Source: a virus
Lineage: Duplodnaviria; Heunggongvirae; Uroviricota; Caudoviricetes
Length of the DNA: 64,000 nt
Virus record (IMG/VR): IMGVR_UViG_3300014205_006828
Span: 1-64,000 of that record
Reading direction: 5' to 3' (one strand)
Part shown: piece by piece, positions 11,722 to 62,140 of the stretch
Layout: each line of letters begins with the position of its first letter
Numbering within the stretch: the first letter of the stretch is position 1
Program-made: the position numbers and the translations under genes
Notes under the pieces: generated by a model
What the model was told of the DNA's origin: nothing
What the model saw: only the letters and a program-made list of their open reading frames with translations
Database searches by the model: none

Positions 11722-12693
11722 ATGCCCAAAAAGATAATTGTTATCACTAAGAAAACCTCATATTCCAAGTATATTCAAGACCAGGATGATGAAGGATCTA
11801 GAGAGCTGTTGCGCACCCAAAACCCAGCTGTTGCGTTCTGGCAATCCTCACACAATAGCCACATGAGAACCCTCAATCGCGTTGTTGAGGAGATTCAAAA
11901 GCAGAACATAGTCTGTACGGTTATTGATTCTAAGTCATTTGTAGTCGATCCTGATGATGTGGCAATGGTAATTTCTGTTGGCGGAGATGGTACTCTTCTC
12001 TCAGCCTCACACAGCGTAAATGGCACACTACCAATCCTGGGAGTGAACTCCGATCCAGAAACTAGCATTGGCTTCTTCTGCTACTCCACCGCAGATACAT
12101 TCCTCAAACATCTATTATTAGCCTTAGATAGTATGTGTATTGAGACAGAATTAACTCGGATGAGTGTGCGAAAAAATGGCAAATTCGTAGCTAATAGAAT
12201 ACTTAACGACGTTCTATTCTGTCATACAAATCCAGCCGCCACCTCGAACTACATCATTCAACTCATGAACCATAGTACGCGCACAATGGCTGCCGTACAG
12301 TGTGGAACTGAAACGAAGCTGACGGCCGATAAAGTACTTCCTCTCTCGACTCAAGAAACGCAGCGATCCAGTGGTATTTGGGTAGGGCCTGCGGCAGGGA
12401 GTACGGCTGCCAGGCGTTCAGCTGGTGCGAGCCCAATGAATCTATCATCTAAAGACTTGCAATTAAGGGTAAGAGAGTTGTACTATAGGCCATCCTCTCA
12501 GCCTGGTCGTATTGAATTGACCGCAGCCCCAGGGCAATTCATTAAGGTTATTAGCAAAATGGATAGTGCTGCTATGTATCTTGATGGTGACTATAGTGTT
12601 ATTCCGGTTGGTCTGGGAGATGAGATTAACTTTGAAATGTCAGATGAATCTCTACATCTCTTAGGTAAACCAAATGTACTTTGTGGGAAATAA
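11722..12693 (+). CDS. nadK: NAD+ kinase (NadK/PpnK family)
   Basis: VISVGGDGTLLSASH is the GGDGT signature of NAD kinases. It is followed by NDVLF in the expected position. Confidence 0.65.
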   Translation: MPKKIIVITKKTSYSKYIQDQDDEGSRELLRTQNPAVAFWQSSHNSHMRTLNRVVEEIQKQNIVCTVIDSKSFVVDPDDVAMVISVGGDGTLLSASHSVNGTLPILGVNSDPETSIGFFCYSTADTFLKHLLLALDSMCIETELTRMSVRKNGKFVANRILNDVLFCHTNPAATSNYIIQLMNHSTRTMAAVQCGTETKLTADKVLPLSTQETQRSSGIWVGPAAGSTAARRSAGASPMNLSSKDLQLRVRELYYRPSSQPGRIELTAAPGQFIKVISKMDSAAMYLDGDYSVIPVGLGDEINFEMSDESLHLLGKPNVLCGK

Positions 12694-13736: not shown

Positions 13737-14228
13737 ATGTCCACAAGATTGATGAAAATGATTATATCAGGAACAGGTCATCGCCCATCTAAAATAGGTG
13801 GATTTATTATCCCAAACAAGACCTTCAACTATATCTGCAGAACAGCAGAAGAGATATTGATACGAGAAAGCCCCTCCAAGATCATTACTGGTATGGCTCT
13901 TGGTTGGGATACTTGGCTCGCTCAAATATCCTACAAACTAAAAATTCCATTCATTGCCGCCGTTCCTTTTACAGGTCAAGAATCTGTGTGGCCAGCGCAA
14001 TCACAAAAACTATATCGTGAATTATTAGAGTTGGCTGATGAAGTTGTGATTGTGAGTGATGGGATATATAGCTCACGCAAAATGCAACTACGCAACGAAT
14101 GGATGGTCAACCATTCTGATAAGGTGCTGGCAGTTTGGGATGGCTCAAATGGTGGTACTGGTAATTGCGTTAGGTATGCTGAAAGTGTAAGCAAAGAAAT
14201 CATAAGGATAGATCCCTGGCATGACTGA
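13737..14228 (+). CDS. SLOG-family YpsA-like protein (DUF1273)
   Basis: MIISGTGHRP...ITGMALGWDTWLAQISYKLKIPFIAAVPFTGQESVWPAQSQKLYRELLELADE matches the B. subtilis YpsA pattern VLAITGYKP...ISGQLGVELWAAEAAY...VAVITPFYEQEKNW. Confidence 0.55.
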   Translation: MSTRLMKMIISGTGHRPSKIGGFIIPNKTFNYICRTAEEILIRESPSKIITGMALGWDTWLAQISYKLKIPFIAAVPFTGQESVWPAQSQKLYRELLELADEVVIVSDGIYSSRKMQLRNEWMVNHSDKVLAVWDGSNGGTGNCVRYAESVSKEIIRIDPWHD

Positions 14229-31479: not shown

Positions 31480-31769
31480 TTCACCGGCATAGTTCACTAT
31501 TTTGGTGAGTTGGCGTCCATAACCAATTCTGTTTGAGGCACTAAACCTTCTCATTCTTGCAAGCGAAATCAACGATAGCAGCTTCGAGCATGTAATCCTC
31601 GATGTAGAACAGCGGTACAGATGGGGCTGTTTCCGAGGTACGAAAGGCATTCACAATCAATTGTCCAAGGCGCAGATCTGGACACTTGATCCATGATTGA
31701 AAGATCGCCTCTATCATCATACTTTTCTGAGCTACAGTCAGAGCGCGCCCTTCAGGTGGTTGCATTGCC

Positions 31770-31982
31770 TCAATGCACTCTTATTAGTTCAAGATAGTAT
31801 GTTTCATCTTGATCAGTCATGCGTTGAAATACCTTATGGCAATCATGGCACTCAAACACTGATGTTACTTTCAATCCAAGTAGAGTGCCTTGACATTTGG
31901 GACAATGAGCTTCTGAAATTACTGTTTGTAGAAGCGTGGTGCCTATTCCTTCGAGAAGTATTTTTGTATCTAGTGTTTTCAT
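31770..31982 (-). CDS. Hypothetical small zinc-ribbon protein
   Basis: CPKCQG...CHDCHK. Confidence 0.3.
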   Translation of the reverse strand: MKTLDTKILLEGIGTTLLQTVISEAHCPKCQGTLLGLKVTSVFECHDCHKVFQRMTDQDETYYLELIRVH

Positions 31983-32266
31983 GAAATAAGATCTGGCCTT
32001 CCACCTAATCTAGACCGAATGCACCCAAGAAGTATTTGAGATACCGGAAGACCATCCACTCTCTGAATGGTTAGGGGATATGGATTGAGAACGTAATCTT
32101 CTTTAGTATAACCCAAGAATTCAATGATACTGTATACTTCATATTTTATTGCCTGAAATACACTTGCAATAGATTGTCGCAAGGTAGGTTTGTATTCAAA
32201 TTCGTTATTAAGAATCGTTACAGTACAATCATCCATTCTTTTACCCCTGATCATATACAGTAACAT
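31979..32266 (-). CDS. Hypothetical protein
   Basis: 95-aa ORF, translationally coupled to its neighbours. Confidence 0.3.
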   Translation of the reverse strand: MLLYMIRGKRMDDCTVTILNNEFEYKPTLRQSIASVFQAIKYEVYSIIEFLGYTKEDYVLNPYPLTIQRVDGLPVSQILLGCIRSRLGGRPDLIS

Positions 32267-32741
32267 TAATTCCTCTCTTTAATAACTCTTGTTCAATAAG
32301 TGGCTCAATAACACTCCACTCCCCTTGTGCTAATCCTGCTCCGATCCGAGGCATATGTACTGCTGCGGTATGCTGACTGATTTCATCACCAGCTTTACTC
32401 AAGCACTGTTGTAGAGCTTTATAGTCAATCGGCTTAGGATTGTTTGGACCTACGATGCCTTTTTGAGCCACCATGTTGATAACAACTAGGTCGCTCAGAA
32501 TCTGAATTACCTGAATATCACCAAGTAGTAGCTTTCCAAAGCGTTCGCGCCACCACTTACGATACTCTGTTTCAACCTTCGGCCATCGCTTAGAAAGTGC
32601 TCCTGAAAAGCCTGCTCCGTATTTCCCCTCATCATTCACGATTTGGATAATGTAACGGTTGCTACTTCCGAGAGGATTTGTTGCATCGCCCTTTACGAAC
32701 TTGAGAAGGCCTTTGGGATTATGATCACTTGGGTTTACCAT
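32241..32741 (-). CDS. Macro domain protein (ADP-ribose binding/processing)
   Basis: VKGDATNP...IVNDEGKYGAGFSGALSKRWP...VHMPRIGAGLAQGEW matches macro-domain motifs (GDIT; NAAN..L.gGgGVdgAI; iafPaistGiyG). Confidence 0.55.
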   Translation of the reverse strand: MVNPSDHNPKGLLKFVKGDATNPLGSSNRYIIQIVNDEGKYGAGFSGALSKRWPKVETEYRKWWRERFGKLLLGDIQVIQILSDLVVINMVAQKGIVGPNNPKPIDYKALQQCLSKAGDEISQHTAAVHMPRIGAGLAQGEWSVIEPLIEQELLKRGINVTVYDQG

Positions 32742-32811
32742 ATTGTTTCCTACGAAAAGAAGTAGTTTTTGATCTGAAACTACAAAACAGGTACCAGTGC
32801 GCCACTCTGCG

Positions 32812-33042
32812 TTATTTCTTCCGATAGATTATACGACACTTAGTTATATCGAAGGTATCGAGTTCGATATCAACTTTATCACCCTCAACAACCTTAATGT
32901 TATTGGTCCTCATCTTACCAGACAGCTGTCCCATGACTCTTCTAGTGTTGCCATTCTCAAGATCAATGAGAATGGAGAAAAATCCGTTACCGCACGCTTT
33001 ATTAATAAGCCCATTGAATCTTGGTTTTTCACTCGGCATCAA
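32812..33042 (-). CDS. infA: Translation initiation factor IF-1 (bacterial type, S1-like OB fold)
   Basis: NGFFSILIDLENGNTRRVMGQLSGKMRTNNIKVVEGDKVDIELDTFDITKCRIIYR aligns with E. coli IF-1 ([52 protein letters not shown]). Confidence 0.75.
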   Translation of the reverse strand: MMPSEKPRFNGLINKACGNGFFSILIDLENGNTRRVMGQLSGKMRTNNIKVVEGDKVDIELDTFDITKCRIIYRKK

Positions 33043-33600
33043 TCACTCCGTTGTCCCAGTGTACTTGGCAATCAATATATCAACACGTTCCTTGATATTG
33101 GCCTGCTCAATTGGAAGTCCAAAAGCCCAGGCTTCCTCGATTATAAAGTCATTAGGATATGAAACCTTCAGGAACTTTATTGTCCTTAGATTGGTTTCTA
33201 GGTACCCAGAAGATATATATCTAAGAATACCGAAACCTAATAATAGCGGGCTAATATTCCTGACCCAGATATTGTTTTCGAAATAGGAGCTTCTAATCTT
33301 TCCATCATTACCAAGAAGTATAAGTATATTGTTTTGTCCGGAAAGTAGCATCCCCCAATAGCTATGGCGTTCTATCAGGGCTGGGTTTGCCTTCCTAAAA
33401 ACGTCTGTAGTCTTCGTGGAAATGGCTGTGGCTGGATAAACCTTGACCACCCCGTTCTTTAGAAGACGCAGGCGGTTTCCATCAAAATCTCTCCACACAT
33501 GCCAGTCCTCCACCGGTTCCAGGCCTAGCATGTCCACCAGAAGATCGAAGGGGCAATTAAGCGCCGCCCGAGCTGAAGCTATCAACCGTTCCTGCCTCAT
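33043..33600 (-). CDS. Hypothetical protein
   Basis: 185-aa ORF between the IF-1 and PP-loop genes. Confidence 0.4.
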   Translation of the reverse strand: MRQERLIASARAALNCPFDLLVDMLGLEPVEDWHVWRDFDGNRLRLLKNGVVKVYPATAISTKTTDVFRKANPALIERHSYWGMLLSGQNNILILLGNDGKIRSSYFENNIWVRNISPLLLGFGILRYISSGYLETNLRTIKFLKVSYPNDFIIEEAWAFGLPIEQANIKERVDILIAKYTGTTE

Positions 33601-34295
33601 CGCACTCTTCTATATAGCTGTGGTTTATCAGAGAGGCTTGGATATGGCTTGTTCATCTTCTTGTGGCGTGTCAGTTTTTCTCTTTGATGAACCTTAGCAA
33701 TCATAGCCTTCTGTGTATGAATGAAGTAGGGCCAACGAGGATGCCGGTGCGGAGACTCTTCACACGTGATGATCCCGAACATCGCCTCGGCCTCATTGCA
33801 GAACTCAATGTCTGCAACGATATCTGTGGATTCAACCGGCCATAGACCAGGCCACAGAGAATCAGTTATCTCAACAATCTCCGAATACTCAAGGTCAAAC
33901 AGCGGGAAGACATCTGCACTACCCGCCGCGCGCTTTCCGTAGCTGCGATAGTACAGTCCGAACGTTCTGTCTACCGGGCCAACTACAATGCCGTGGTCGT
34001 GCGCTATTTCGTGGCATTGAAGATAGTAGTAACCAGGGTTCTTGATACTGTCAATGGAGTATGTAACATTTCCATTGAAAACATTCTTGATCTCGATAGT
34101 GCTCGTCGGAAAGCTGAGGGCATGAGTTGCAAGGCCACCATAGTTCTCAGTGGCCTTTGAGCAGATGTGAAGCAACAGGGCATCAGAACGAGCGCCATCA
34201 AAACCCACCACAAAAACACTGCGTCCGGCGGCTTTGGCGTATTCTGCCAGCCACTTGGCGAGATGTTCAATGAGTAGGTCTTGGTTGGTGATCAT
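33597..34295 (-). CDS. PP-loop ATP pyrophosphatase family protein, NH3-dependent NAD+ synthetase (NadE)-like. The SGGxDS motif is degenerate (FDGARSD)
   Basis: HLAKWLAEYAKAAGRSVFVVGFDGARSDALLLHICSKATENYGG parallels NadE ([44 protein letters not shown]). Downstream, VGPVDRTF and FPLFDL sit at the GTDHAAE and LLPL positions. Confidence 0.45.
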   Translation of the reverse strand: MITNQDLLIEHLAKWLAEYAKAAGRSVFVVGFDGARSDALLLHICSKATENYGGLATHALSFPTSTIEIKNVFNGNVTYSIDSIKNPGYYYLQCHEIAHDHGIVVGPVDRTFGLYYRSYGKRAAGSADVFPLFDLEYSEIVEITDSLWPGLWPVESTDIVADIEFCNEAEAMFGIITCEESPHRHPRWPYFIHTQKAMIAKVHQREKLTRHKKMNKPYPSLSDKPQLYRRVR

Positions 34296-34525
34296 TTCTT
34301 TTTACTTGATGCGTCCTTCAGTACCTTATCAACAATACCCTGGACATCGAAGTTTGGAGCTTGTGGAATGTCCTCGACTTCCTTGAATTTCTCGACGGCA
34401 TGGGTAGCGATAGCGTCTGCTTTCATAATCGCATGCTGCGCATCGTAATTGGCCGAAGATGTAAACATCGTTGTAACCACACTAGTATATACATGGTACC
34501 AAACTTGATACTCCGGATACTTCAT
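34292..34525 (-). CDS. Hypothetical small protein
   Basis: 77-aa ORF with overlapping stop/start to its neighbours. Confidence 0.3.
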   Translation of the reverse strand: MKYPEYQVWYHVYTSVVTTMFTSSANYDAQHAIMKADAIATHAVEKFKEVEDIPQAPNFDVQGIVDKVLKDASSKKK

Positions 34526-34803
34526 GACACATCCTTCTTCTTCCTGGTCTTCTTAATCACTGGTGTGGATTGGCTCCTACAAATTCGAAGCACTTCCCGA
34601 ACTTCTTCAATCTCTTGTGCTGAACACGCACTGCCACTAGAGTTATTGACCTCTAACCCATAATTATTGGTCTCTTTATTATGGTGAATCAATATCCACA
34701 ATCTTGGGTTTGCGTCCAAGAGAGCTTTGCGATATGAAATGAGGAGGTTTAGATCGCTACTTAGTTCGAACAGGTCTTTGCGTTGTTCAATTGGAATCGG
34801 CAT
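34522..34803 (-). CDS. Hypothetical small protein
   Basis: 93-aa ORF. Confidence 0.3.
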   Translation of the reverse strand: MPIPIEQRKDLFELSSDLNLLISYRKALLDANPRLWILIHHNKETNNYGLEVNNSSGSACSAQEIEEVREVLRICRSQSTPVIKKTRKKKDVS

Positions 34804-34815
34804 ATCTGTCTTTCT

Positions 34816-35403
34816 TTATAGCAAGCCAAGTAACATCATGGCCAGAACATATCCATGACCAACTTTAATCTTTTCATTATCAATCAGCTTATCGACATCA
34901 TACCCATGCACATTGATTCCATGCGCGTCGAAGTCTTGAAGAACCAAACAATCTGCTCCATTCGTTCGAGAACAAACCGATTCAAATGTTTGAGTTAGCT
35001 TCTCGAACGCCTCGGTATTTCGTACTGCATTTGAGTAAAGTGGAATATAGATTTGCCTTCTAGCTTCTATATACCCAAGCTTTCTCCCATCCCATAATGA
35101 GTAAAGCGGCTTGTTTCCTCGACCCATAGGATACCGATCAGCAAACTTCTTAGCCCAGCCCTTTTTAGCCCATTCGAAATACGCATTGCCAGGCTCGTTA
35201 TTTTCATCAGCGTACTCGGTGTACACTTTAGAATATTGCCAGGCATTCTCTACATTTTGAGCCTCATACTCTCCGTACAACTTCACAGGCCCAAGTAGAA
35301 ATGGTGATAAACCACGGCTCCAACCATGAGCGCGTGAAGTTGTGTTGACAATCACCGCATCATCGGAGAACTTGCTAGAGAAGTCTGCTACGATAAGTTT
35401 CAT
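34816..35403 (-). CDS. Putative NADAR (DUF1768, YbiA-like) domain protein. Weak call
   Basis: LSPFLLGPV..., ...ENAWQYSKV and ...WDGRKLGYIEARRQIYIPL loosely follow the YbiA pattern (FSNFA..PI ... EHYFQAQKF ... GKNRLGYLLMELR). Confidence 0.35.
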   Translation of the reverse strand: MKLIVADFSSKFSDDAVIVNTTSRAHGWSRGLSPFLLGPVKLYGEYEAQNVENAWQYSKVYTEYADENNEPGNAYFEWAKKGWAKKFADRYPMGRGNKPLYSLWDGRKLGYIEARRQIYIPLYSNAVRNTEAFEKLTQTFESVCSRTNGADCLVLQDFDAHGINVHGYDVDKLIDNEKIKVGHGYVLAMMLLGLL

Positions 35404-35996
35404 TTGTATACTAACTTAATTCCGCTATTAGGATCTTCGGACAGGATAATCAATCTTTGTTTGAAATCGAACTCCAGATCGTTTTTCAGATCAGTATACT
35501 CTTTTTTCCTATCGGTTGACTTCTCAATCAGCCTGGAAAGAGATCCTCGTGGATCAAGGTATGTTCCGTATAGATATTGGATTCTCTGTTTGGAATTGGC
35601 CTCTTGCACTTCTCGTAGGGCTTGTGCTTTGAATTTCTCAACATTACTTTCTATTACTGTGCTTTTTAGAAGCCCACCATTAATGGAAAGGAACATATCT
35701 TCTTCATACATAGATCCATATCCGGCATGAACATAGTTAAGAAGATTTCCCTTCCAAACATGAAGTTCTTGAGAAACCCAATCGGCAAAAAATGGGCCTT
35801 TACCCTTCATGACTCCGCCAACCACTCGATTGAGATATAGCTTGTTATCTACAATCTCCCACTCCCCAACGTACCCTCGATAGTTTGAGGTTTTCGTAGA
35901 CCAACCAGCTTCAGCCTTGTCATGGAGGCTTGGGTTGGATACCATCTCTAACTCCTCACCATCAATGATGAGGATTTCAGGTTGTTGCGCCGTCAT
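35400..35996 (-). CDS. Hypothetical protein
   Basis: 198-aa ORF. Confidence 0.4.
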   Translation of the reverse strand: MTAQQPEILIIDGEELEMVSNPSLHDKAEAGWSTKTSNYRGYVGEWEIVDNKLYLNRVVGGVMKGKGPFFADWVSQELHVWKGNLLNYVHAGYGSMYEEDMFLSINGGLLKSTVIESNVEKFKAQALREVQEANSKQRIQYLYGTYLDPRGSLSRLIEKSTDRKKEYTDLKNDLEFDFKQRLIILSEDPNSGIKLVYK

Positions 35997-36807
35997 CTTC
36001 CAATGCCTTCTTCAAGTTACTGTACAAGACGTCAGGATCGTTATCCGATAACCCGCTCATCTGGCCGTCATTCAACTCAATCAGAATCCATTCACCAGCG
36101 GCTGTCTTTGCCACATCAATCACGTAGTACGTTGGCGGCTCACTCAGCTCCGTATTCTGAATCTTATCAATGATAGCATTCAAGAACTCGCGCGGCACCT
36201 CATCTGGATTAATAGAAATACCCTCGGCGCGGATGTCATCCGAATGTGAACTCCAATAGAAGCCGCCGCTAAGTATCGTCTTCTTGTATACAAAAAACCT
36301 ATACTCTCTGGTAATTTGTAGTCCTTGAAGCCCGCTAGAAAGAACCTCAAGAGGCACGTACTTTCGAATGTAGATCTTCTGGTACTGAAGCATTGAATCA
36401 GCCATAAGCCGCCCATGCACTTCAATGGCCGCCTTCTTATCCTTGGCAAAACAGTGGGTATTCCAAAGGAACTTTTTGGAGTTTGTTTCGCCCTTTAATA
36501 CAAATGGACCATCAGTAGGAATGTTGTGAAGCTCATCCCATGTATGAGGAGTAAAAGAACTCAAATCCATATACCAATTACCAAGATCTGCAATATACCT
36601 ATGTTGCTCATAGGTATTAATCATCTTGCATCCAACAATATTTAGGTCACGTTCCTGTTCGAGATAAAACGGGAGGGCTGAAAACCTAGAAATTACTAAA
36701 TTGTCTCTAAGCAACATACGACTATCAACACAAGCAAAATACTTACGCACTACTTGTTCTTCTTGTCTCCAATCAATATCATTGCGAAACAAAATTACTG
36801 GTTTCAT
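35977..36807 (-). CDS. ATP-grasp fold enzyme (putative carboxylate-amine ligase)
   Basis: The C-terminal WILIELNDGQMSGLS resembles the ATP-grasp hhEhN..PG motif. Preceding beta-rich segments (YRFFVYKKTILSGG) fit the fold. Confidence 0.45.
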   Translation of the reverse strand: MKPVILFRNDIDWRQEEQVVRKYFACVDSRMLLRDNLVISRFSALPFYLEQERDLNIVGCKMINTYEQHRYIADLGNWYMDLSSFTPHTWDELHNIPTDGPFVLKGETNSKKFLWNTHCFAKDKKAAIEVHGRLMADSMLQYQKIYIRKYVPLEVLSSGLQGLQITREYRFFVYKKTILSGGFYWSSHSDDIRAEGISINPDEVPREFLNAIIDKIQNTELSEPPTYYVIDVAKTAAGEWILIELNDGQMSGLSDNDPDVLYSNLKKALEDDGATT

Positions 36808-36892
36808 TTTTACCTATATTCACATATACCTGTTTATCCAGGTATAAAACTCTTTCAATGTCTTATCGGATTTAGATAAGTGTATGTACTTC

Positions 36893-37165
36893 TTACGTTC
36901 CATTGCAGAATTCGTTTATCTCACCAAAAACCCTAGCGTCCTCAACAGCTATCAAATCATCAATGGCTCTCTTTTGAGCAGATTCAATGATATCCTTTTC
37001 TGCACACCTGATCATTTCTCTAAAGGCCAGATACTTCCCCAACAACGCCCTGCGAATATCTGCCTTGGAGATTTTCCTTACAAGCTCTCCAAACTCATTC
37101 TCGCGCCAACCACTAGGCAACATGGCCTTGATGGCCTTTCGCTTTTCACGATGCTTCTTTCCCAT
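36893..37165 (-). CDS. Hypothetical basic protein
   Basis: The start was moved to MGKKHREKRK so it does not overlap tRNA-Pro. Confidence 0.3.
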   Translation of the reverse strand: MGKKHREKRKAIKAMLPSGWRENEFGELVRKISKADIRRALLGKYLAFREMIRCAEKDIIESAQKRAIDDLIAVEDARVFGEINEFCNGT

Positions 37166-37169
37166 ATTG

Positions 37170-37243
37170 TCGGAATGGTCAGATTCGAACTGACGGTCTC
37201 CAGTACCCAAAACTGGCGGATTACCAAACTTTCCTACATTCCG
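37170..37243 (-). tRNA. tRNA-Pro (anticodon TGG)
   Basis: Reverse complement folds as acceptor CGGAATG/CATTCCG (perfect), anticodon stem CCAGT/ACTGG with loop TTTGGGT, T-arm GTCAG-TTCGAAT-CTGAC (perfect). Confidence 0.7.
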
Positions 37244-37249
37244 ATGGCA

Positions 37250-38023
37250 TCACACAGATGCCGCTTGAACCTGAATAGACCCATCAAGGGTATTCCGAAT
37301 CCAAGTCTTAGTATCTTCCGGATCCCTTACTTGAACGTAAACAAGACCCATCTCTATAGCGGCATAATCACTGCCTCCCTTGAAGATGGCATCGCCTACA
37401 TACAAAAGATCATCCTTGCTGGCACGTAGCTTCTTCATCAACTCATCAATGCCGTACTTCTTATTAATGCCCTTAGCAGAGACATCAATGGAAGTCTTCC
37501 CAGCTACGCGCACCTCGTAAATTGGAAGTTTGCGTCGTAGAACATCGGCCAACACCCGGCGCTTACTACCATCCACATCCCACTTCTCCTTGGCTTCAAG
37601 AGGTGCTCTCTGGCCAAGTGCGGAGAAGGTTACTTTGGAATCACAACTCTCCACCTGCTTCCCCCAAAGCTTCTGTGGCTGTATAAACCCAGATTCCACG
37701 ATAGCCTCTTCAATCATGGCGTTGATGCGGTCTACCTCGCGAGAGCTAAGCTTATGCTGATAGGCCGCAACCCAACCATACTTCCCCCAGGATTGGAACA
37801 GGCTGCCACCTGACGCTGGGAGAATGTAGAGGTTGTTTAGAAGCTTCTGATCAATATGTAGAAGGTTATCGATCTGTTTGTTTACCTGTTTCCAAGATGC
37901 TCCAGAAATGATGGCAATATTACAACTGGCTAACAACTTGCTGAGCAATGCTATCATTTCCTCATCAAGTGCGTCTTTGGAAATGGTCAGGGTTCCGCCA
38001 AGATCAAAAACAATCGTCTTCAT
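37250..38023 (-). CDS. HAD-superfamily hydrolase (Cof/phosphomannomutase-like)
   Basis: MKTIVFDLGGTLT is HAD motif I with the second Asp replaced by Gly. Later motifs follow: ..GASW.. and ..VGDAIFKGGSD.. . The start was moved to ATG at 38023. Confidence 0.5.
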   Translation of the reverse strand: MKTIVFDLGGTLTISKDALDEEMIALLSKLLASCNIAIISGASWKQVNKQIDNLLHIDQKLLNNLYILPASGGSLFQSWGKYGWVAAYQHKLSSREVDRINAMIEEAIVESGFIQPQKLWGKQVESCDSKVTFSALGQRAPLEAKEKWDVDGSKRRVLADVLRRKLPIYEVRVAGKTSIDVSAKGINKKYGIDELMKKLRASKDDLLYVGDAIFKGGSDYAAIEMGLVYVQVRDPEDTKTWIRNTLDGSIQVQAASV

Positions 38024-38057
38024 ACTATCTCTCTTGTTTATTCGAAGTTTCCAAACA

Positions 38058-38136
38058 GTCCCCAGACCAGGGCTCGCACCTGGATCGTCCCTAAACAATT
38101 AGGGGCTCTTTACAACTTGAGCTATCCGGGGGAAGT
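38058..38136 (-). tRNA. tRNA-like element with aberrant anticodon loop (6 nt) and atypical T-loop. Possible pseudo-tRNA or processed/edited tRNA
   Basis: Reverse complement folds as acceptor CCCCGGA/TCTGGGG, D-arm TAGCTCAAGTTGTAAAGAGC, stem CCCTA/TAGGG around ATTGTT, T-stem CCAGG-TGCGAGC-CCTGG. Confidence 0.35.
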
Positions 38137-38151
38137 GTACAAAATGGGACA

Positions 38152-38457
38152 CTATCCTGGCTCCTCGACTTTTTCCAATTCAATCCATCCATATCTCAAT
38201 GTCTTCATTGCTATAGACCATTCTACTTCACAATGATAAGTCATCCCGGTCATCTTCTTCTCTAGATAGAAGTTGTTATCACCAACATTCTTGTAAATAG
38301 TATCTTCCAAATCTGCATCTGTATTAAAATGCTGAACTCGAAAGGCTCTCTTTACCATGTATGACTTTTCTCGCACTTGAGGCTTAGCCATCAATTCAAT
38401 AGGATCACAGGATGGAATTCTCTCATTCCAAAATGAAGGTGGAATAAATGCGCCCAT
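38152..38457 (-). CDS. Hypothetical protein
   Basis: 101-aa ORF. Confidence 0.35.
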   Translation of the reverse strand: MGAFIPPSFWNERIPSCDPIELMAKPQVREKSYMVKRAFRVQHFNTDADLEDTIYKNVGDNNFYLEKKMTGMTYHCEVEWSIAMKTLRYGWIELEKVEEPG

Positions 38458-42197: not shown

Positions 42198-42438
42198 CTC
42201 CTACTATTACCGTCTTTACAATCTTCGGAGCACCAATTAGTCCCCGAGGATTTACGACACCAACACCATTACACTCCAGCAATTGATACGCTATTAGGTC
42301 AGGAAGAACTACTGGCATAGGGCCTTTCCGCTCATGTCTCACTGGAGTGATTGGCGTCATCTCTAAAAGAATCTCTGATATTGGTTTCAGATCCTCATCA
42401 GTAATGTCAGGGTATCCTTGTCGCTTGATAGTTGTCAT
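42184..42438 (-). CDS. Hypothetical small protein
   Basis: 84-aa ORF. Confidence 0.3.
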   Translation of the reverse strand: MTTIKRQGYPDITDEDLKPISEILLEMTPITPVRHERKGPMPVVLPDLIAYQLLECNGVGVVNPRGLIGAPKIVKTVIVGDEDD

Positions 42439-44594
42439 AGCATTACATTGTGAGGATGCGACTCAGTCAGGCCAGCATTCGATATAACCACGAAATGAGG
42501 ATCGGCTTTCAAGTCAGCTAGATTCTTGGATCCTTGGTATGAACATCCACTCTTGATGCCCTCCACCAAACGCAGTACAACATCACGCACACTGCTTTTG
42601 TATGGAACGAGCGCAACGACACCTTCGACATGCTTTTGCTTGTGTGTTGAGCTGCCAGCGTAGCGCTTGAACTTCTTGCCTTGAAACTGGATGATTTCTC
42701 CTGGGGCTTCGTCTGTGCCGGCAAACAAGTTGCCAATCATCACAAGCTCCGCGAATGCCAGCGCCTTGACGCAATCACCTGCGCTCTTAATTCCACCATC
42801 CGCAATGAACATCGGCCACTGATCATCTCTCATGCTGTAGTTGCCATCATTGCAGACAATATCCAGCGCACTGAGTTGTGGATATCCGTTGCCTGTTTCA
42901 ATGCGGGTAGTGCAGAGAGAATTGTGTACTATAGCGTTATCAGCAATAAAGCTATGTGTTTCACAATCAATCGTCAAATCAAATACCGACACCTCATCAT
43001 TTATATTTGTATACTCTAACAATTTAGATATTTGATAGTTGTCTATAACTCGTTTTTCTGCTGTGTTGTTTATTCTTGACACATAAGGCGTATTGAAATT
43101 TTCAATATTCGCACCTTTTAGATTTCCAGATGTCACTTTATCTTGCTGATTGTTTGGGAACACCTTGGTAAGAAGATATGTGACTATATTAAATAGTTCT
43201 ATTAGGTGAATTGATGTATTTTTGAAATTCTTTCTACCACCAGATTCTATACTACCATCCGAGTCCATCAAACCATCGTGTATGCCTTGTAAATACCCAA
43301 TATTATTTACAATGTATTCTGGTGGTAGATATTTCTCTGTTCTCTTTCCAAAACCAGATAAGAATTCCGCAAACGGTTTATGATACAAAGAACAAACAAT
43401 TATGTTTTCTTTAGCTTTAATTTTCAACGCCCTTCCTGTAAGGGTCTTGATACACTCCGCTAATCGATGTGCGATGTGAAGTTCATCAACTCCAAAATAC
43501 CAATGAATAGCTCCTGTATTAGTACGCCCGTTATTAACAATCATGGCGTGCCCATCTCCAAGGAAAGTCCCAAAAATATATCCTACCTCTATTGTTGGTT
43601 CAATGACAAAATCAACACTTACCTTAATTGAAGAATGCCCATTCCAGCCATCGCGTATCACAATTTCCTTTTTGAAACTATTCGGAAATTCAAACTCAAT
43701 ATTATTTGGCATTAGTAATGCAACTTTATTAATGTTGCCAATTTCTTGCCATTTTAGTTTGCTTTGTTTTGGTGTAGTTTTCGATTGCGTTTTTAGAGCC
43801 TTTGAATAACCAATACTTTCAAGTGTTGTTTTAGAAATACTACTTAAATCACCAATGAAATATTGATGATCAGGCGTTACATAAGTAGCTTTATATGAAA
43901 TAGAGTTGCGAATCTTAGATACCTTACGAATGCCGGTGCAAAATGCTTTCAGTACACTTTTCGGTTTGCCATCCATATTGATAATACGCTCGCCCGGTTT
44001 GATATCCTCAATGTTTTTATACAACCCATTAGACATTAATATTCTGGTACCAGCCCCAAAACAACCTGGCCCTACGCCAATTTTGATAATATCCGCACCA
44101 GCATTCCAGAGCAAAGAAGCTCCTTTGGCAGTTACTACATTCCCGGCAATAAGGAGAATGCCAGGAAATGTGGTGTGAACTGCCGATACGAACTCAGCCA
44201 CTTTGGTATGATCCCCATGAGCAACATCTACACAAATTATCTTACAACCAATTCTATTCAGTTCATGTATGAGGTCCAGATCTTTCGGCTTGATACCTAC
44301 TGAGGCACCAATCGCACCAGGAAATCCATGGGATGCTGCACGAGCTTGATCGTAGTTTGTGAACAGCTCTCCATAGTCATCGAAGCGGTGCAGTATGGCC
44401 AGACCTCCAAGTTCAGCGATTGTTTCTGCCATTTTTACATCTGTCACTGTTGCCATATTTGCACTGACAAAAGGTATCTTAAGTTCAATACCTTTTGGTA
44501 AAGAAACCGATAGATCAACCTCCTCCCTAGATCCAATCGAGCTGTGTTTTGGGATCAGAAGAACATCATCAAAAGTATAGCCTTGAGTGAACAT
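42435..44594 (-). CDS. guaC: GMP reductase / IMP dehydrogenase-family (CBS-less, GuaC-like) enzyme interrupted by a 381-aa LAGLIDADG intein
   Basis: Exteins: ...ICVDVAHGDH...AGNVVTAKGASLLWNAGADIIKIGVGPG | SLCTTRIETGNGYPQLSA...MFIADGG... matches the GuaC/IMPDH catalytic region (VGIGPGSVCTTR..GVGYPQLSAV). The insert begins with Cys and ends ..IVHN|S, and carries two LAGLIDADG blocks (FGTFLGDGHA; IHDGLMDSDGSI). Confidence 0.75.
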   Translation of the reverse strand: MFTQGYTFDDVLLIPKHSSIGSREEVDLSVSLPKGIELKIPFVSANMATVTDVKMAETIAELGGLAILHRFDDYGELFTNYDQARAASHGFPGAIGASVGIKPKDLDLIHELNRIGCKIICVDVAHGDHTKVAEFVSAVHTTFPGILLIAGNVVTAKGASLLWNAGADIIKIGVGPGCFGAGTRILMSNGLYKNIEDIKPGERIINMDGKPKSVLKAFCTGIRKVSKIRNSISYKATYVTPDHQYFIGDLSSISKTTLESIGYSKALKTQSKTTPKQSKLKWQEIGNINKVALLMPNNIEFEFPNSFKKEIVIRDGWNGHSSIKVSVDFVIEPTIEVGYIFGTFLGDGHAMIVNNGRTNTGAIHWYFGVDELHIAHRLAECIKTLTGRALKIKAKENIIVCSLYHKPFAEFLSGFGKRTEKYLPPEYIVNNIGYLQGIHDGLMDSDGSIESGGRKNFKNTSIHLIELFNIVTYLLTKVFPNNQQDKVTSGNLKGANIENFNTPYVSRINNTAEKRVIDNYQISKLLEYTNINDEVSVFDLTIDCETHSFIADNAIVHNSLCTTRIETGNGYPQLSALDIVCNDGNYSMRDDQWPMFIADGGIKSAGDCVKALAFAELVMIGNLFAGTDEAPGEIIQFQGKKFKRYAGSSTHKQKHVEGVVALVPYKSSVRDVVLRLVEGIKSGCSYQGSKNLADLKADPHFVVISNAGLTESHPHNVML
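42921..44063 (-). mobile_element. Intein with LAGLIDADG homing-endonuclease domain, inserted 3 residues upstream of the catalytic Cys of the GuaC/IMPDH-like enzyme
   Basis: Splice junctions GVGPG/CFGAG... and ...AIVHN/SLCTTR. Codon coordinates were verified against the sequence. Confidence 0.7.
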
Positions 44595-58397: not shown

Positions 58398-58766
58398 TTA
58401 CTCTTTGGTATCAAATACGCTCCAGGTATTTATCACCATCTCAAAGAAATGTCGCTTGCTCAGGGTTCTCGCCTTATTATCTTCTCGCAAGATAAATTTT
58501 GGTTTGTTCCATTTACCAAGCTGAGTGTCATTATGATAGATTGTAAATGCCCTATCTCCATCATCAATGATTTCTATCTCTAATTTACCTAACAAATCCC
58601 GAAGTAGGCATTTCTGTTTTACCGTCAATAATATATCAGGCCAAACGTCATCTAACGGAACTCCGACTTGTTCAAGGACGCCTTTCAGAAAAAGGTTTCT
58701 TTCTTCCTCTTCGACTGATTTGGCGTCCTCTCTATCTAGGTAAACTGATCTGTACATTAACCACAC
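58398..58766 (-). CDS. Hypothetical protein
   Basis: 122-aa ORF. Confidence 0.35.
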   Translation of the reverse strand: MWLMYRSVYLDREDAKSVEEEERNLFLKGVLEQVGVPLDDVWPDILLTVKQKCLLRDLLGKLEIEIIDDGDRAFTIYHNDTQLGKWNKPKFILREDNKARTLSKRHFFEMVINTWSVFDTKE

Positions 58767-61700: not shown

Positions 61701-62140
61701 ACGCCCGGAGTTCTACCACCAATGCCACTAACATACGAACCAGATGGACGAATCCAGGAAAAATTCATTCCATATCCGCCTTCGGATTTTAGAGTTAGTG
61801 CCTGTGCTTTAAGCATATCATAAATACCACTCAACGAGTCTGGATCTTGGTATTTTATATCTGAAGGATTATGTACAAAACAATTCATCAAACTAGTAGC
61901 TTCGCGTCCAGTCACGCCAAGATTTGCAGTAATTCTACCGCCAGCAATACCTTTGAAATCAGTCAGTAACCACAGAAAATCTTTGTATACCTTTTCTCTA
62001 ATATCTTCGCTTTCAATTTCGGAGCAAGCTTTAGCTTGCCTCTCCCAAGTATCAGCTAACGAACTTTCTCCTGGGGCTCTGTAATTATCGTTCCAAACTT
62101 CATCTGAGATATTCTGTCTAATTACCATGTTATTCCTCAA
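58757..62140 (-). CDS. Ribonucleotide reductase large subunit (likely class II NrdJ-type) interrupted by a 286-aa HNH intein
   Basis: Exteins: ..SLMNCFVHN.., KGAQMGILE | CWHPEIEDFI (RRGA....L...HPDI..F motif), TTNPCGEVSMS (NPCGE active site), and a C-terminal CxxC...CxxC tail. The insert begins with Cys, ends ..FIHN|C, and contains an HNH core (ELHHIDCNTTNNSIDNIELLTRSEHAKEH). Confidence 0.8.
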   Translation of the reverse strand: MRNNMVIRQNISDEVWNDNYRAPGESSLADTWERQAKACSEIESEDIREKVYKDFLWLLTDFKGIAGGRITANLGVTGREATSLMNCFVHNPSDIKYQDPDSLSGIYDMLKAQALTLKSEGGYGMNFSWIRPSGSYVSGIGGRTPGVLKFMELWDKSSEVITMGSEKSSGKKADEKKKIRKGAQMGILECIAGSSLISTINGRVSIKDLVGKTPYVYCTDCKGNVFVRQASKIWSNGKRKVIKVFFDNDDFIICTPDHKILLSNGSYKEAGKLVFGDSISALRKRIYNKYLQLGITGYRKCIPEHVAVAELKYGRYPLSKIANGAFLPESEELHHIDCNTTNNSIDNIELLTRSEHAKEHGRSNDFVLRKYQRDLAESRKGKSDIEWYGEKKSRLIQEKRIASRRSNGTNVPWNKGSVEYKNHYQNGFKNQFSQKLADDTNHKVITVEDYGEEEVFDMSVPDFHNFVANGVFIHNCWHPEIEDFIVAKQTAGRLSKFNISVGICRGFMEAVENNTDWDLVFPNTHVPEHKQVWAGDIEDWKSRGLPIVVYKTVKARDLWDNIMKSTYNRNDPGVLFLDIANKYNPLGYAENIVTTNPCGEVSMSTGVCLLLSLNLVKYLKETDDGFEFDFETFKRASEIAVRFSDNINDISRVPLDDYKISMVEKRRIGIGVVGLGSLLAILGLRYGSKESIELVTKIFKTKAETEILASARIGQEKGSFPLFDKLKYFNSYWWKTLPISEKVKREVEDIGYMRNSHRSANAPTGNMSIYAGVLSGGIEPMFNLEYARWAIVPEGDRADLRKSGFNFPDVFKGEWFETELLKKSKAGTDDILIGEFNGSQYQVDKNRGLTKKSVVQDWAWLFIKEHFSQEEIDRRKNLGLLATSEELSHSEHIDMLKAIARYVDMNSSKTINLPNDYPYDSFKDIYFDAWKSGIKGVTTYRNGTMTAVLEAVDDKPKEREAPKRPKELPCNIHTAKVDGVKWAVIIGLHDNKPYEVFAGPAENLDVKNGQTGKIVKRKRGEYCLEINGEILSVNGTGNIVDMLDDASSAWATRLISMSLRHSVPIRFICDQLSKDGYVTDINKVLARILKKYLSDNKVDNICPECGGKNIKLDPCFTCVDCNYGKCG
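60716..61573 (-). mobile_element. HNH-containing intein in the ribonucleotide reductase gene
   Basis: Junctions MGILE/CIAGSS... and ...GVFIHN/CWHPEI. Codon positions were verified. Confidence 0.7.

What the first reader, a model, noticed from the sequence alone, without database searches (positions are those of the whole stretch)
32241..36807. Co-oriented NAD/ADP-ribose-associated block: macro domain, NADAR-like, NadE-like PP-loop (degenerate P-loop) and ATP-grasp ligase
One tightly packed minus-strand operon-like block also contains IF-1 and several unknowns. It holds a macro domain protein (32241-32741), a PP-loop protein with NH3-dependent NAD+ synthetase-like layout but FDGARSD in place of SGGxDS (33597-34295), a weak NADAR/YbiA-like ORF (34816-35403), and an ATP-grasp enzyme (35977-36807). 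An NAD+ kinase (GGDGT, 11722-12693) lies elsewhere in the window. Macro and NADAR domains remove ADP-ribose from proteins and nucleic acids. Phage-borne NAD-handling enzymes have been linked to countering host defences that deplete NAD+ or ADP-ribosylate phage DNA. The combination here (PP-loop plus ATP-grasp plus macro/NADAR) is not a pathway I can name. It could be a new NAD+/ADP-ribose salvage or anti-defence module.
Basis: inference. Interest (0 to 1): 0.65.

Follow-up and report, generated by a model that had tools for sequence, protein, structure and literature searches.

The report
Phage ADP-ribose erasers beside dead NadE
A huge phage carries, in one tightly packed gene row, two different enzymes predicted to strip ADP-ribose marks (a likely counter to bacterial toxins), next to a conserved but catalytically dead copy of the last NAD-synthesis enzyme; the row is a mosaic of accessory genes, not a new NAD pathway.

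Summary
All four domain calls hold. ORF 32241-32741 is a macrodomain of the SCO6735/BT1257 subclass (E about 1e-35 to solved structures). ORF 33597-34295 is a true but very divergent NadE homologue. ORF 34816-35403 is Pfam DUF6939; its confident model (pLDDT 95) matches three NADAR structures best. ORF 35977-36807 is an ATP-grasp of the R2K (CDC123-like) clade.

The proposed NAD+/ADP-ribose pathway is not supported. The NadE-like protein has lost the PP-loop, both Mg/ATP residues and two ATP-contacting segments, so it cannot make NAD+. It is still under strong purifying selection. It belongs to a family of at least 215 clusters, mostly degenerate in the same way.

R2K, the 198-aa ORF and DUF6939 come and go between related phages. 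The order NadE(-like) > 185-aa orphan > IF-1 > macro persists down to 22-28% identity, but helicase or thioredoxin-like genes are inserted in some lineages.

Best reading: a mosaic array in a roughly 460-kb phage, with two independent ADP-ribosyl-glycohydrolases acting as antitoxin-like counter-defence. No NAMPT or NMNAT was found in the window.

New points: DUF6939 as a NADAR-fold family, the pseudo-NadE family, and its persistent orphan partner.

The parts
32241..32741 (-). Macrodomain protein (166 aa) of the SCO6735/BT1257 subclass of the ALC1-like (TARG1/DarG) class. Predicted ADP-ribosyl hydrolase.
   Evidence: PDB 2fg1, 2afc and 5e3b at E 7e-36 to 3e-35; weaker hits to CHD1L/ALC1, Poa1p and TARG1. 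PADLOC DarG E 6e-8. Q93 aligns with the essential Gln85 of SCO6735, and the 'PRIGAGLAQG' loop is kept. SCO6735 K34 and K89 correspond to A43 and V97 here. dN/dS 0.05.
32812..33042 (-). Translation initiation factor IF-1 (76 aa), lying between the 185-aa orphan and the macro gene.
   Evidence: TIGR00008 64.2 bits against a cut-off of 61.15. Pfam eIF-1a E 1.7e-14. It is adjacent to the 185-aa orphan in every lineage that has it. It is absent from the canonical-NadE loci L015, L021, L022 and L023.
33043..33600 (-). 185-aa orphan protein ('u185'), the constant partner downstream of NadE(-like).
   Evidence: 91 homologues, none with a Pfam domain. No PDB sequence hit with a 44-sequence profile, and no consistent Pfam hit. 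Invariant residues: W33 W36 D38 D66 S80 G97 R103 W112 N115 G122. It lies downstream of NadE(-like) in loci down to 22-28% identity. dN/dS 0.16.
33597..34295 (-). Pseudo-NadE (232 aa): a divergent NH3-dependent NAD+ synthetase homologue without the PP-loop and other ATP/Mg determinants.
   Evidence: for homology and fold. Searches show a family of 215 clusters that grades into Pfam NAD_synthase members. Searches give residue-by-residue loss: SGGxDS, T157>P, E162>F, D173>A, and the R139 and T208 segments deleted. K121, D128, H211 and K212 are kept. dN/dS 0.07.
34292..34525 (-). 77-aa ORF found upstream of the NadE-like gene in the window's lineage. Function unknown.
   Evidence: tblastn homologues lie upstream of the NadE-like gene in L002, L004, L010, L011, L013, L019, L020 and L028-L035, directly in most; in L011/L012, L019/L033 and L020/L034 other sequence lies between. 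No credible family hit.
34522..34803 (-). 93-aa ORF of unknown function.
   Evidence: Homologues in close relatives and L013. No family hit. dN/dS 0.04.
34816..35403 (-). DUF6939 protein (195 aa) with a divergent NADAR-like fold. Predicted ADP-ribosyl glycohydrolase.
35400..35996 (-). 198-aa orphan overlapping both R2K and DUF6939. Function unknown.
   Evidence: Found only in close relatives. No hit in the phage collection, no family hit, and not found beside DUF6939 elsewhere. dN/dS 0.25.
35977..36807 (-). ATP-grasp enzyme (276 aa) of the R2K (CDC123-like) clade. Predicted ATP-dependent peptide or amino-acid ligase acting on proteins.
   Evidence: Pfam R2K_3 E 7e-18 and R2K_2 E 4.5e-15, both above cut-off. 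The 'IELNDG' (ExN) motif is visible in the translation. A 44%-identical homologue in the 485-kb phage LR745208.1 sits in a different context, next to Multi_ubiq and YpsA genes. Function as predicted in PMC4431377 and PMC7824862.
31541..32266 (-). Three small co-oriented ORFs (74, 70 and 95 aa) downstream of macro. The 70-aa ORF has a weak zinc-ribbon-like signature.
   Evidence: Homologues are collinear in relatives. dN/dS 0.09-0.11.

Best explanation
The block is a co-directional, tightly packed array of accessory genes in a roughly 460-kb phage. It is not one biochemical pathway.

Two of its genes are independent erasers of ADP-ribose. The SCO6735/BT1257-type macrodomain belongs to a class shown to remove ADP-ribose from thymidine in DNA and from proteins. 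DUF6939 is a divergent NADAR-fold protein that keeps the Glu/Lys pair; NADARs remove ADP-ribose from guanine. The most likely role of both is as orphan, antitoxin-like counter-defence enzymes. They would strip ADP-ribose that host ADP-ribosyltransferase toxins (DarT-like and relatives) put on phage DNA, RNA or proteins.

The NadE-like protein descends from a genuine phage NAD+ synthetase but has lost ATP binding and catalysis. It persists under purifying selection as a non-catalytic protein, probably a ligand-binding or partner subunit. It lies next to a conserved 185-aa orphan.

The R2K ATP-grasp is a separate, mobile gene predicted to ligate amino acids or peptides onto proteins.

Shown here: homology, fold, motif loss or retention, synteny patterns and purifying selection. 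Inferred: every enzymatic activity, the substrates and the counter-defence role.
For: Macro: E about 1e-35 to SCO6735 and BT1257. The Gln85 equivalent and the diphosphate loop are kept. SCO6735 cleaves thymidine-linked ADP-ribose on DNA and rescues cells from DarT (PMC9411070).

Pseudo-NadE: Foldseek ranks 1-37 are all NadE. The family grades into Pfam NAD_synthase members with SGGxDS. The window protein lacks SGGxDS, the T157, E162 and D173 equivalents and two segments. dN/dS is 0.07.

Mosaic structure: DUF6939 and the 198-aa ORF are missing in L013. R2K, the 198-aa ORF and DUF6939 were not detected in the sequence available in L010, L011, L019 and L020. The NadE-like, u185, IF-1 and macro genes remain in all of these. 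R2K in LR745208.1 has other neighbours.
Against: No activity was measured. The SCO6735 lysines that position DNA (K34, K89) are not conserved in the phage macro (A43, V97), so its substrate may not be DNA. A weaker resemblance to the ADPR-1''-phosphatase Poa1p exists.

DUF6939 does not match Pfam NADAR. Foldseek E-values to annotated viral NADARs are poor, 0.09-2. The Glu/Lys equivalence rests on motif spacing, not on a residue-level superposition, and hhalign to YbiA was not significant.

No ADP-ribosyltransferase target or host is known. The persistence of NadE(-like) > u185 > (IF-1) > macro down to 22-28% identity could mean these genes work together, which this explanation leaves open.
Confidence: 0.5

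Rival explanations
1. NadE(-like), the 185-aa orphan and the macrodomain form a real multi-component NAD/ADP-ribose system, possibly a physical complex, with u185 as an undescribed core enzyme or binder.

In the ancestral form, with active NadE and active macro as in L022-like loci, it could rebuild NAD+ from ADP-ribose-derived products through a deamido intermediate. In the window's lineage it would have been repurposed, for example to bind or sequester NAD-derived molecules, with NadE reduced to a ligand-binding subunit.
For: The gene order is kept from 88% down to 22-28% identity. Starts and stops overlap or abut.

A precedent exists: phage NARP1 operons carry a macro-domain ADPR-1''-P phosphatase (bioRxiv 10.64898/2026.01.28.702374).

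The residues aligned to NadE's K170, D177 and His-Lys are nearly invariant across 151 family members while the PP-loop is free to vary.

Decay is reciprocal. Canonical-NadE loci L015, L021 and L023 carry macros that lack the Gln and the diphosphate loop, whereas the window's lineage has the reverse.
Against: All these loci come from one clade of large phages that also shares RNase T, a CCA-adding enzyme and a HAD gene nearby. Synteny may therefore simply be inherited.

A 640-aa SF2 helicase and thioredoxin-like genes are inserted between NadE-like and u185 in L037, L039 and L040. Macro is not detected in those loci.

The reciprocal-decay pattern rests on essentially two lineages. u185 has no detectable fold or family.
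Confidence: 0.25
2. The macro protein works on soluble metabolites, as an ADPR-1''-phosphate or O-acetyl-ADPR hydrolase. It would feed an NAD+ reconstitution pathway encoded elsewhere in the 460-kb genome. The block would then contribute to NAD+ homeostasis together with the NAD kinase at 11722-12693.
For: PHROG 335 'phosphatase' at E 1.5e-27. Poa1p hits at E 4e-5. Phage Adpp macro proteins do exactly this. An NAD kinase and a YpsA-SLOG protein are in the window. DUF6939 lies near NAMPT and NMNAT in other phages.
Against: Similarity to SCO6735 and BT1257 is far stronger (E 1e-35) than to Poa1p. No Adps, Namat, NAMPT or NMNAT was found in the 64-kb window. The rest of the genome could not be inspected.
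Confidence: 0.12
3. The block is a translation take-over module. IF-1 would be the functional centre, the R2K ligase would modify a translation factor or ribosomal protein as proposed for CDC123, and the PP-loop-fold protein would act on tRNA.
For: IF-1 is embedded in the block and always adjacent to u185. The R2K clade is defined by CDC123, a regulator of eIF2 assembly. tRNA genes lie in the same transcription direction. An RF-1-domain gene lies upstream in L011.
Against: Foldseek places the PP-loop protein with NadE (ranks 1-37). TilS and NcsA appear only from rank 38 with lower TM scores. The PP-loop protein cannot bind ATP in any case. IF-1 is absent from the canonical-NadE loci. R2K is not linked to IF-1 in L001, L010 or L011.
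Confidence: 0.08

Closest known systems
SCO6735 / BT1257 subclass of ALC1-like macrodomains (relatives: DarG, TARG1)
   Same: Full-length similarity of about 45-50% identity (by eye from the alignment) at E about 1e-35. The essential Gln (Q93 here) and the Gly-rich diphosphate loop are kept. SCO6735 removes ADP-ribose from thymidine in DNA and acts as a DarT antitoxin.
   Different: It is phage-encoded and stand-alone, with no DarT partner in the sequence examined. The DNA-positioning lysines K34 and K89 are replaced (A43, V97), although K40 and K94 lie nearby. The substrate is unknown.
NADAR superfamily, including phage AdfN (anti-DarTG1) and DarG1
   Same: The best structural matches are G. 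lovleyi NADAR, YbiA and P. nicotianae NADAR. An invariant Glu-x6-Lys matches the conserved NADAR pair E43/K50. It is a single-domain phage protein like AdfN.
   Different: Pfam classifies it as DUF6939, not NADAR. It has no significant sequence-profile match to YbiA and weak Foldseek scores to annotated viral NADARs. Its closest structural relatives are uncharacterised giant-virus proteins. The third catalytic residue is unassigned.
NH3-dependent NAD+ synthetase NadE (PF02540), including jumbo-phage pncB-nadD-nadE clusters
   Same: Same fold and overall layout, with the central 'Y.K....ADIFPL.DL' and C-terminal 'HK' motifs. It is linked by intermediate sequences to Pfam-positive phage NadEs. 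Phage NadE genes are known (PMC11662467).
   Different: It lacks SGGxDS and has T157>P, E162>F and D173>A. The segments aligned to the R139 and T208 regions are deleted. It is therefore not an NAD synthetase. It has a family-specific C-terminal 'W.Y..QK..IA..HQREK.TRHK' signature. It lies next to u185 and macro, not next to pncB or nadD.
Phage NAD+ reconstitution pathways NARP1, NARP1-AP, NARP2 and NARP3
   Same: The theme is similar: a macro-domain protein sits beside NAD-related genes in phages. NARP1-AP uses a macro ADPR-1''-P phosphatase. DUF6939 neighbours NAMPT and NMNAT-Nudix (NARP2-type genes) in other phages.
   Different: No Adps, Namat, NAMPT or NMNAT was found in the block or window, and no scanned ORF matched PnuC or NadR. 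NadE is not part of any described NARP, and here it is inactive.
R2K clade ATP-grasp enzymes (CDC123, R2K.2, R2K.3)
   Same: Pfam R2K_3 and R2K_2 both score above their cut-offs. Sporadic presence in jumbo phages has been noted before. A published R2K.2 - ADP-ribosylglycohydrolase - R2K.3 linkage in Firmicutes parallels the proximity to ADP-ribose erasers here.
   Different: It carries ExN ('IELNDG') rather than the ExGD hallmark of R2K.3. The target is unknown. The linkage to macro and NADAR-like genes is not conserved.

Membership tests
Macrodomain, ALC1-like class, SCO6735/BT1257 subclass | Full-length sequence similarity to solved members of the subclass | tested here: met
   2fg1 E 7e-36 and 5e3b E 3e-35, covering residues 13-166.
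Macrodomain, ALC1-like class, SCO6735/BT1257 subclass | Gln at the position of DarG K80 / TARG1 K84 (SCO6735 Gln85, essential), plus the Gly-rich diphosphate-binding loop | tested here: met
   Q93 in 'MVAQKG' aligns to 'MIGQHG', and 'PRIGAGLAQG' aligns to 'PRIGCGLAGG'.
Macrodomain, ALC1-like class, SCO6735/BT1257 subclass | Lysines K34 and K89, which position the DNA substrate in SCO6735 | tested here: not met
   The aligned residues are A43 and V97. K40 and K94 are nearby but not equivalent.
Macrodomain, ALC1-like class, SCO6735/BT1257 subclass | Pfam Macro (PF01661) gathering score | tested here: not met
   18.8 bits against a cut-off of 22. The generic model fits this subclass poorly, so this carries little weight against the PDB matches.
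Macrodomain, ALC1-like class, SCO6735/BT1257 subclass | Hydrolysis of ADP-ribose from thymidine in DNA or from proteins | not testable with these tools
   Requires an enzyme assay or a DarT2 rescue assay.
NADAR superfamily | Match to the Pfam NADAR model | tested here: not met
   Only DUF6939 (PF22075, E 9e-9) was reported at E <= 0.1.
NADAR superfamily | NADAR fold | tested here: met
NADAR superfamily | Conserved Glu and Lys seven residues apart (E43/K50 in P. nicotianae NADAR; E88/K95 in E. coli C7 NADAR) | tested here: inconclusive
   E52 and K59 are invariant in 36 sequences with the same spacing: 'VENAWQYSK' against YbiA 'SEHYFQAQK' (YbiA sequence recalled from memory). No residue-level structural superposition was available, and hhalign to YbiA was not significant and was offset.
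NADAR superfamily | Third catalytic residue (Glu, Asp or His near the distal ribose) | tested here: inconclusive
   D157, D159 and H183 are invariant candidates. None could be placed in the active site.
NH3-dependent NAD+ synthetase (NadE, PF02540) | Homology and fold | tested here: met
   Profile to 3fiu at E 4e-4. Foldseek ranks 1-37 are all NadE. tblastn with a canonical phage NadE gives E 2e-10. Family members reach 132 bits on PF02540. The window protein itself has no Pfam hit.
NH3-dependent NAD+ synthetase (NadE, PF02540) | PP-loop SGGxDS | tested here: not met
   'FDGARSD' in the window protein. Of 151 family sequences, 126 match at most 2 of the 5 motif positions and 11 are canonical.
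NH3-dependent NAD+ synthetase (NadE, PF02540) | Mg/ATP and catalytic residues (B. subtilis T157, E162, D173; the R139 and T208 segments). Residue roles are recalled from memory of the NadE literature. | tested here: not met
   P, F and A at the aligned positions. The segments aligned to 'GGLRSCLRAP' and 'PTADLWGP' are deleted. The canonical phage NadEs in the same alignment give the same result.
NH3-dependent NAD+ synthetase (NadE, PF02540) | K170, D177 and the C-terminal His-Lys | tested here: met
   K121, D128, H211 and K212. Across the family: K 149/151, D 150/151, H 143/151, K 145/151.
ATP-grasp, R2K clade | Match to the R2K family models above their curated cut-offs | tested here: met
   R2K_3 65.8 bits (cut-off 26.3) and R2K_2 56.2 bits (cut-off 26.2).
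ATP-grasp, R2K clade | R2K.3-specific ExGD motif in the last strand (PMC4431377) | tested here: not met
   The sequence reads 'IELNDG', a standard ExN. Subfamily assignment is left open.
ATP-grasp, R2K clade | Two conserved lysines in the RAGNYA domain | not tested
   No residue-level alignment to the published family alignment was made.
Phage NAD+ reconstitution pathways (NARP1, 2, 3) | Presence of Adps+Namat, or NAMPT+NMNAT, or PnuC+NadR | tested here: not met
   None appeared among the 50 window ORFs scanned with Pfam. tblastn with phage NAMPT, NMNAT-Nudix and ARH found nothing in the window. The rest of the genome was not available.
Translation initiation factor IF-1 | Equivalog model score | tested here: met
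   TIGR00008 64.2 bits against 61.15.

The most novel reading that the evidence does not exclude
NadE(-like), the 185-aa orphan and the macrodomain are the three parts of an undescribed phage NAD/ADP-ribose system in which u185 is a new enzyme or binder.

The ancestral version (active NadE plus active macro) would rebuild NAD+ through a deamido intermediate. Derived versions lost one or the other catalytic site but kept the complex. In the window's lineage the dead NadE would then serve as a dinucleotide-binding subunit, for example a sensor or sponge for NAD-derived immune signals.
Probability: 0.2. Interest if true: 0.75.

Novelty: new variant of a known kind. Interest (0 to 1): 0.5.

Why it matters
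ADP-ribosylation of phage DNA and depletion of NAD+ are two major themes in bacterial immunity. Phage erasers (AdfN NADARs, macro phosphatases) and NAD+ rebuilding pathways have only recently been described.

If the readings here hold, three things follow.

(1) DUF6939 has more than 1000 members. They occur in cultured Erwinia, Dickeya, Klebsiella, Citrobacter and Ralstonia phages, and giant viruses have structurally similar proteins. The family would become a candidate new branch of NADAR-type ADP-ribosyl glycohydrolases. This gives a function to many 'hypothetical' phage genes and a testable counter-defence.

(2) One phage would carry erasers of two different folds, possibly covering thymine- and guanine-linked ADP-ribose.

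(3) A sizeable family of NadE-derived pseudoenzymes, kept under selection beside a conserved orphan, would show that automatic 'NAD synthetase' labels on phage genes (PHROG 11189) can mislead. It also points to an unknown partner protein worth structural study.

Tried and rejected
- Near-identity DNA search of 31500-38200 against 50,697 phage records found no match.
- tblastn of the NadE-like and 198-aa proteins against phage records found nothing.
- Single-sequence PDB searches for DUF6939, the NadE-like protein and R2K were uninformative or empty.
- The DUF6939 profile found no NADAR in PDB sequences.
- hhalign of the DUF6939 family to an E. coli YbiA sequence recalled from memory was not significant.
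- hhalign of the NadE-like family to a single B. subtilis NadE sequence aligned only the N-terminal 33 residues.
- u185 gave no Pfam, NCBIfam, PHROG or PADLOC hit, no PDB hit with 6- or 44-sequence profiles and no consistent Pfam hit among 44 members. hhalign of u185 to DUF6939 or to the NadE-like family was not significant.
- I considered u185 as an R-S-E ADP-ribosyltransferase and dropped the idea. The 'EE' pair is not conserved in the L015 homologue.
- I considered u185 as a DarG C-terminal (DarT-binding) domain. The DarG models matched only the macro protein.
- I considered the 198-aa ORF as a fixed partner of DUF6939 and rejected it.
- The promoter and terminator scan showed no signal above shuffles.
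- The search for related loci failed on the broad alignments A4 and A5 because they have no conserved stretch.
- The afdb50 fold library was unavailable.
- I looked for published residue roles of NadE in the held library without success. Those roles are therefore cited from memory.

Full report
**Setting.** The window has 14 tRNA genes. It also encodes a CCA-adding enzyme, IMP dehydrogenase and ribonucleotide reductase (each interrupted by an intein), methionine aminopeptidase, a sigma factor, a DnaB-like helicase and IF-1. The exact DUF6939 and 185-aa proteins occur on a 463-kb contig that NCBI labels as a Pacearchaeota MAG. Relatives lie on IMG/VR contigs of 208-392 kb. This is a huge phage. 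No close relative exists among 50,697 deposited phage records.

**Observation.** From 31541 to 36807 there are 12 co-oriented minus-strand ORFs, and the minus-strand run continues to 40244. Seven junctions overlap by 4-26 nt; the other gaps are 0-70 nt. All 12 ORFs have collinear homologues in related contigs. dN/dS against the closest relative (L004) is 0.04-0.25 for the 11 ORFs where dS could be estimated; dS is near saturation, so the values are rough.

**Macro (32241-32741).** Pfam Macro is below its cut-off. However, the protein matches solved structures BT1257 (2fg1) and SCO6735 (5e3b) over its full length at E 7e-36 to 3e-35. Weaker hits go to ALC1, Poa1p, TARG1 and DarG. SCO6735 removes thymidine-linked ADP-ribose from DNA, protects against DarT and depends on Gln85 (PMC9411070). 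The phage protein keeps that Gln (Q93) and the diphosphate loop. It has A43 and V97 where SCO6735 has the DNA-positioning K34 and K89. It is probably an active ADP-ribose hydrolase, but the substrate is open.

**NadE-like protein (33597-34295).**
- It has no Pfam hit and a weak PHROG 'NAD synthetase' match.
- A profile of 21 homologues hits Francisella NadE (3fiu) at E 4e-4.
- The AF2 model (pLDDT 78) retrieves only NadE structures in Foldseek ranks 1-37. The tRNA-modifying PP-loop enzymes TilS and NcsA appear only from rank 38.
- An exhaustive profile search found 215 cluster representatives. They share a central 'Y.K....ADIFPL.DL' motif and a family-specific C-terminal 'W.Y..QK..IA..HQREK.TRHK' motif.
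- The PP-loop ranges from canonical SGGxDS or SGGxNS to unrecognisable. Of 151 sequences, 11 are canonical, 6 match 4 of 5 positions, and 126 match at most 2 of 5.
- The ten members tested, eight with canonical PP-loops and two with altered ones, all score above the Pfam NAD_synthase cut-off, up to 132 bits. One canonical NadE (L015) hits the window gene directly at E 2e-10.
It lacks SGGxDS. It has P, F and A at the T157, E162 and D173 positions. The segments corresponding to the R139 helix and the 'PTADL' loop are deleted. It keeps K170, D177 and the C-terminal His-Lys, which are 143-150 of 151 across the family.
- Residue roles are from my memory of the NadE literature. I could not retrieve a source.
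- Conclusion: this is a NadE-derived pseudoenzyme that cannot adenylate NaAD, yet it is strongly constrained (dN/dS 0.07).

Homologues sit in 66 deposited phage records, all annotated 'hypothetical': Erwinia jumbo phages, Dickeya, Klebsiella, Citrobacter Tr1, Yersinia and Ralstonia phiRSL1, plus four uncultured huge-phage records. In two unrelated large-phage contigs the gene lies within a few kb of NMNAT-Nudix and an ADP-ribosylglycohydrolase, and in one of them (L008) also of NAMPT. In a third contig it lies next to a nucleoside deoxyribosyltransferase-like gene. Phage NADARs are proven anti-DarTG1 factors (PMC11825919).

**ATP-grasp (35977-36807).** It matches R2K_3 and R2K_2 above their cut-offs and has an ExN motif. 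The clade is defined by CDC123 and is predicted to ligate peptides or amino acids onto proteins. Its phage members have been proposed to modify host proteins (PMC4431377 and PMC7824862). The only hit in the phage collection, a 485-kb uncultured phage, places R2K beside a Multiubiquitin-domain protein and a YpsA-SLOG protein. None of the other block genes lies within 10 kb there.

**Is it a module?**
- Close relatives (56-88% identity) keep the whole order, but they also keep the flanking genes, so this says little.
- More distant loci are informative. L013 keeps R2K but lacks the 198-aa ORF and DUF6939. In L010, L011/L012, L019 and L020, R2K, the 198-aa ORF and DUF6939 were not detected in the sequence available. 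All of these keep 77-aa > NadE-like > u185 > IF-1, and > macro wherever the contig extends that far.
- In a far lineage with canonical NadE (22% identity to the window protein), the order NadE > u185 > macro recurs without IF-1 (L015, L021, L022, L023).
- In other lineages (24-31% identity) a 640-aa SF2 helicase or a thioredoxin-like gene sits between NadE-like and u185. There u185 still lies next to IF-1 in L037 and L039 (IF-1 was not detected in L040), and macro was not detected.
- These contigs also share RNase T, and L023 shares the CCA-adding enzyme, nearby. They belong to one phage clade, so part of the conservation is inherited backbone synteny.
- Functional coupling of NadE(-like), u185 and macro is therefore possible but only moderately supported. 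Coupling of R2K and DUF6939 to them is not supported.

**A curious detail.** The macros in three canonical-NadE loci (L015, L021, L023) lack the Gln and the diphosphate loop. L022 and the window's lineage keep them. Decay thus appears reciprocal, but the sample is effectively two lineages.

**u185 and the 198-aa ORF.** Both remain orphans by every sequence method available. Both structure-prediction slots had already been used.

**Comparison with known systems.** Described phage NAD+ reconstitution pathways use Adps and Namat (with or without a macro phosphatase), NAMPT and NMNAT, or PnuC and NadR. None uses NadE, and none of those genes was found in the window. Jumbo phages with pncB-nadD-nadE clusters are known, but here NadE is dead and has different neighbours.

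The most likely mechanism is as follows. Two independent ADP-ribosyl hydrolases act as antitoxin-like counter-defence. They sit in a mosaic accessory array that also holds a conserved NadE-derived pseudoenzyme with its orphan partner, IF-1 and a separate R2K protein ligase.

Novelty is moderate: a new variant of known kinds. There is a speculative but testable possibility that NadE(-like), u185 and macro form an undescribed system.

Noticed in passing
window 5426-8176 (+): A 916-aa ORF matches the Major Vault Protein shoulder domain (E 4.6e-27) and a vault repeat (E 2e-8). An MVP-like protein in a phage genome is unusual.
   Followed up: no
window 13737-14228 (+); L001 11549-12058: A YpsA-family SLOG protein (E 3e-16) lies near the NAD kinase (11722-12693). 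In the unrelated 485-kb phage LR745208.1, a YpsA-SLOG gene and a Multiubiquitin-domain gene directly follow the R2K ATP-grasp. This suggests a possible R2K, ubiquitin-like, SLOG association.
   Followed up: partly
L015 1564-2025; L021 5618-6091; L023 5829-6287: The macro homologues that follow canonical NadE genes lack the Gln85 equivalent and the 'PRIGCGLAGG' diphosphate loop. The L022 macro and the window-lineage macros keep them. This is the reverse of the NadE decay seen in the window's lineage.
   Followed up: partly
L037 3157-5097; L039 713-2644; L004 2444-3763: A 640-aa SF2 helicase (ResIII, Helicase_C, SNF2-like) is inserted between NadE-like and u185 in some lineages. In L004 the gene call containing R2K is 439 aa with an SNF2-like N-terminal part. 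This is either a fusion or an assembly or gene-calling artefact.
   Followed up: no
window 38058-38131 (-) and 37250-38098 (-): ARAGORN reports a tRNA-like gene with an undetermined anticodon. It overlaps the TTG-start N-terminus of the HAD-IIB/PMM-like ORF, so the HAD protein more likely starts at the internal 'MKTIVFDLGG'. Its motif I reads DLGGT rather than DxDxT.
   Followed up: no
window 42435-44594 (-) and 58757-62140 (-): IMP dehydrogenase and the ribonucleotide reductase large subunit each carry an intein. The RNR intein includes an HNH endonuclease.
   Followed up: no
the 463-kb contig carrying the window (P0026, P0308): NCBI names these proteins as from a 'Candidatus Pacearchaeota archaeon' MAG. 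The gene content and the IMG/VR relatives indicate a huge phage, so the bin label is probably wrong.
   Followed up: no
BFVD hits to the DUF6939 model: The closest viral structural relatives of the DUF6939 model are uncharacterised proteins of Pithovirus, Marseillevirus, Megaviridae and Bodo saltans virus (E 2e-13 to 3e-9, TM up to 0.84). The fold is shared between huge phages and giant eukaryotic viruses.
   Followed up: no
L011 881-1300; L010 4037-4795: In some relatives the region upstream of the NadE-like gene carries an RF-1-domain (peptidyl-tRNA hydrolase-like) gene. In another relative it carries an AAA_28 gene plus a glycosyltransferase family 8 gene.
   Followed up: no
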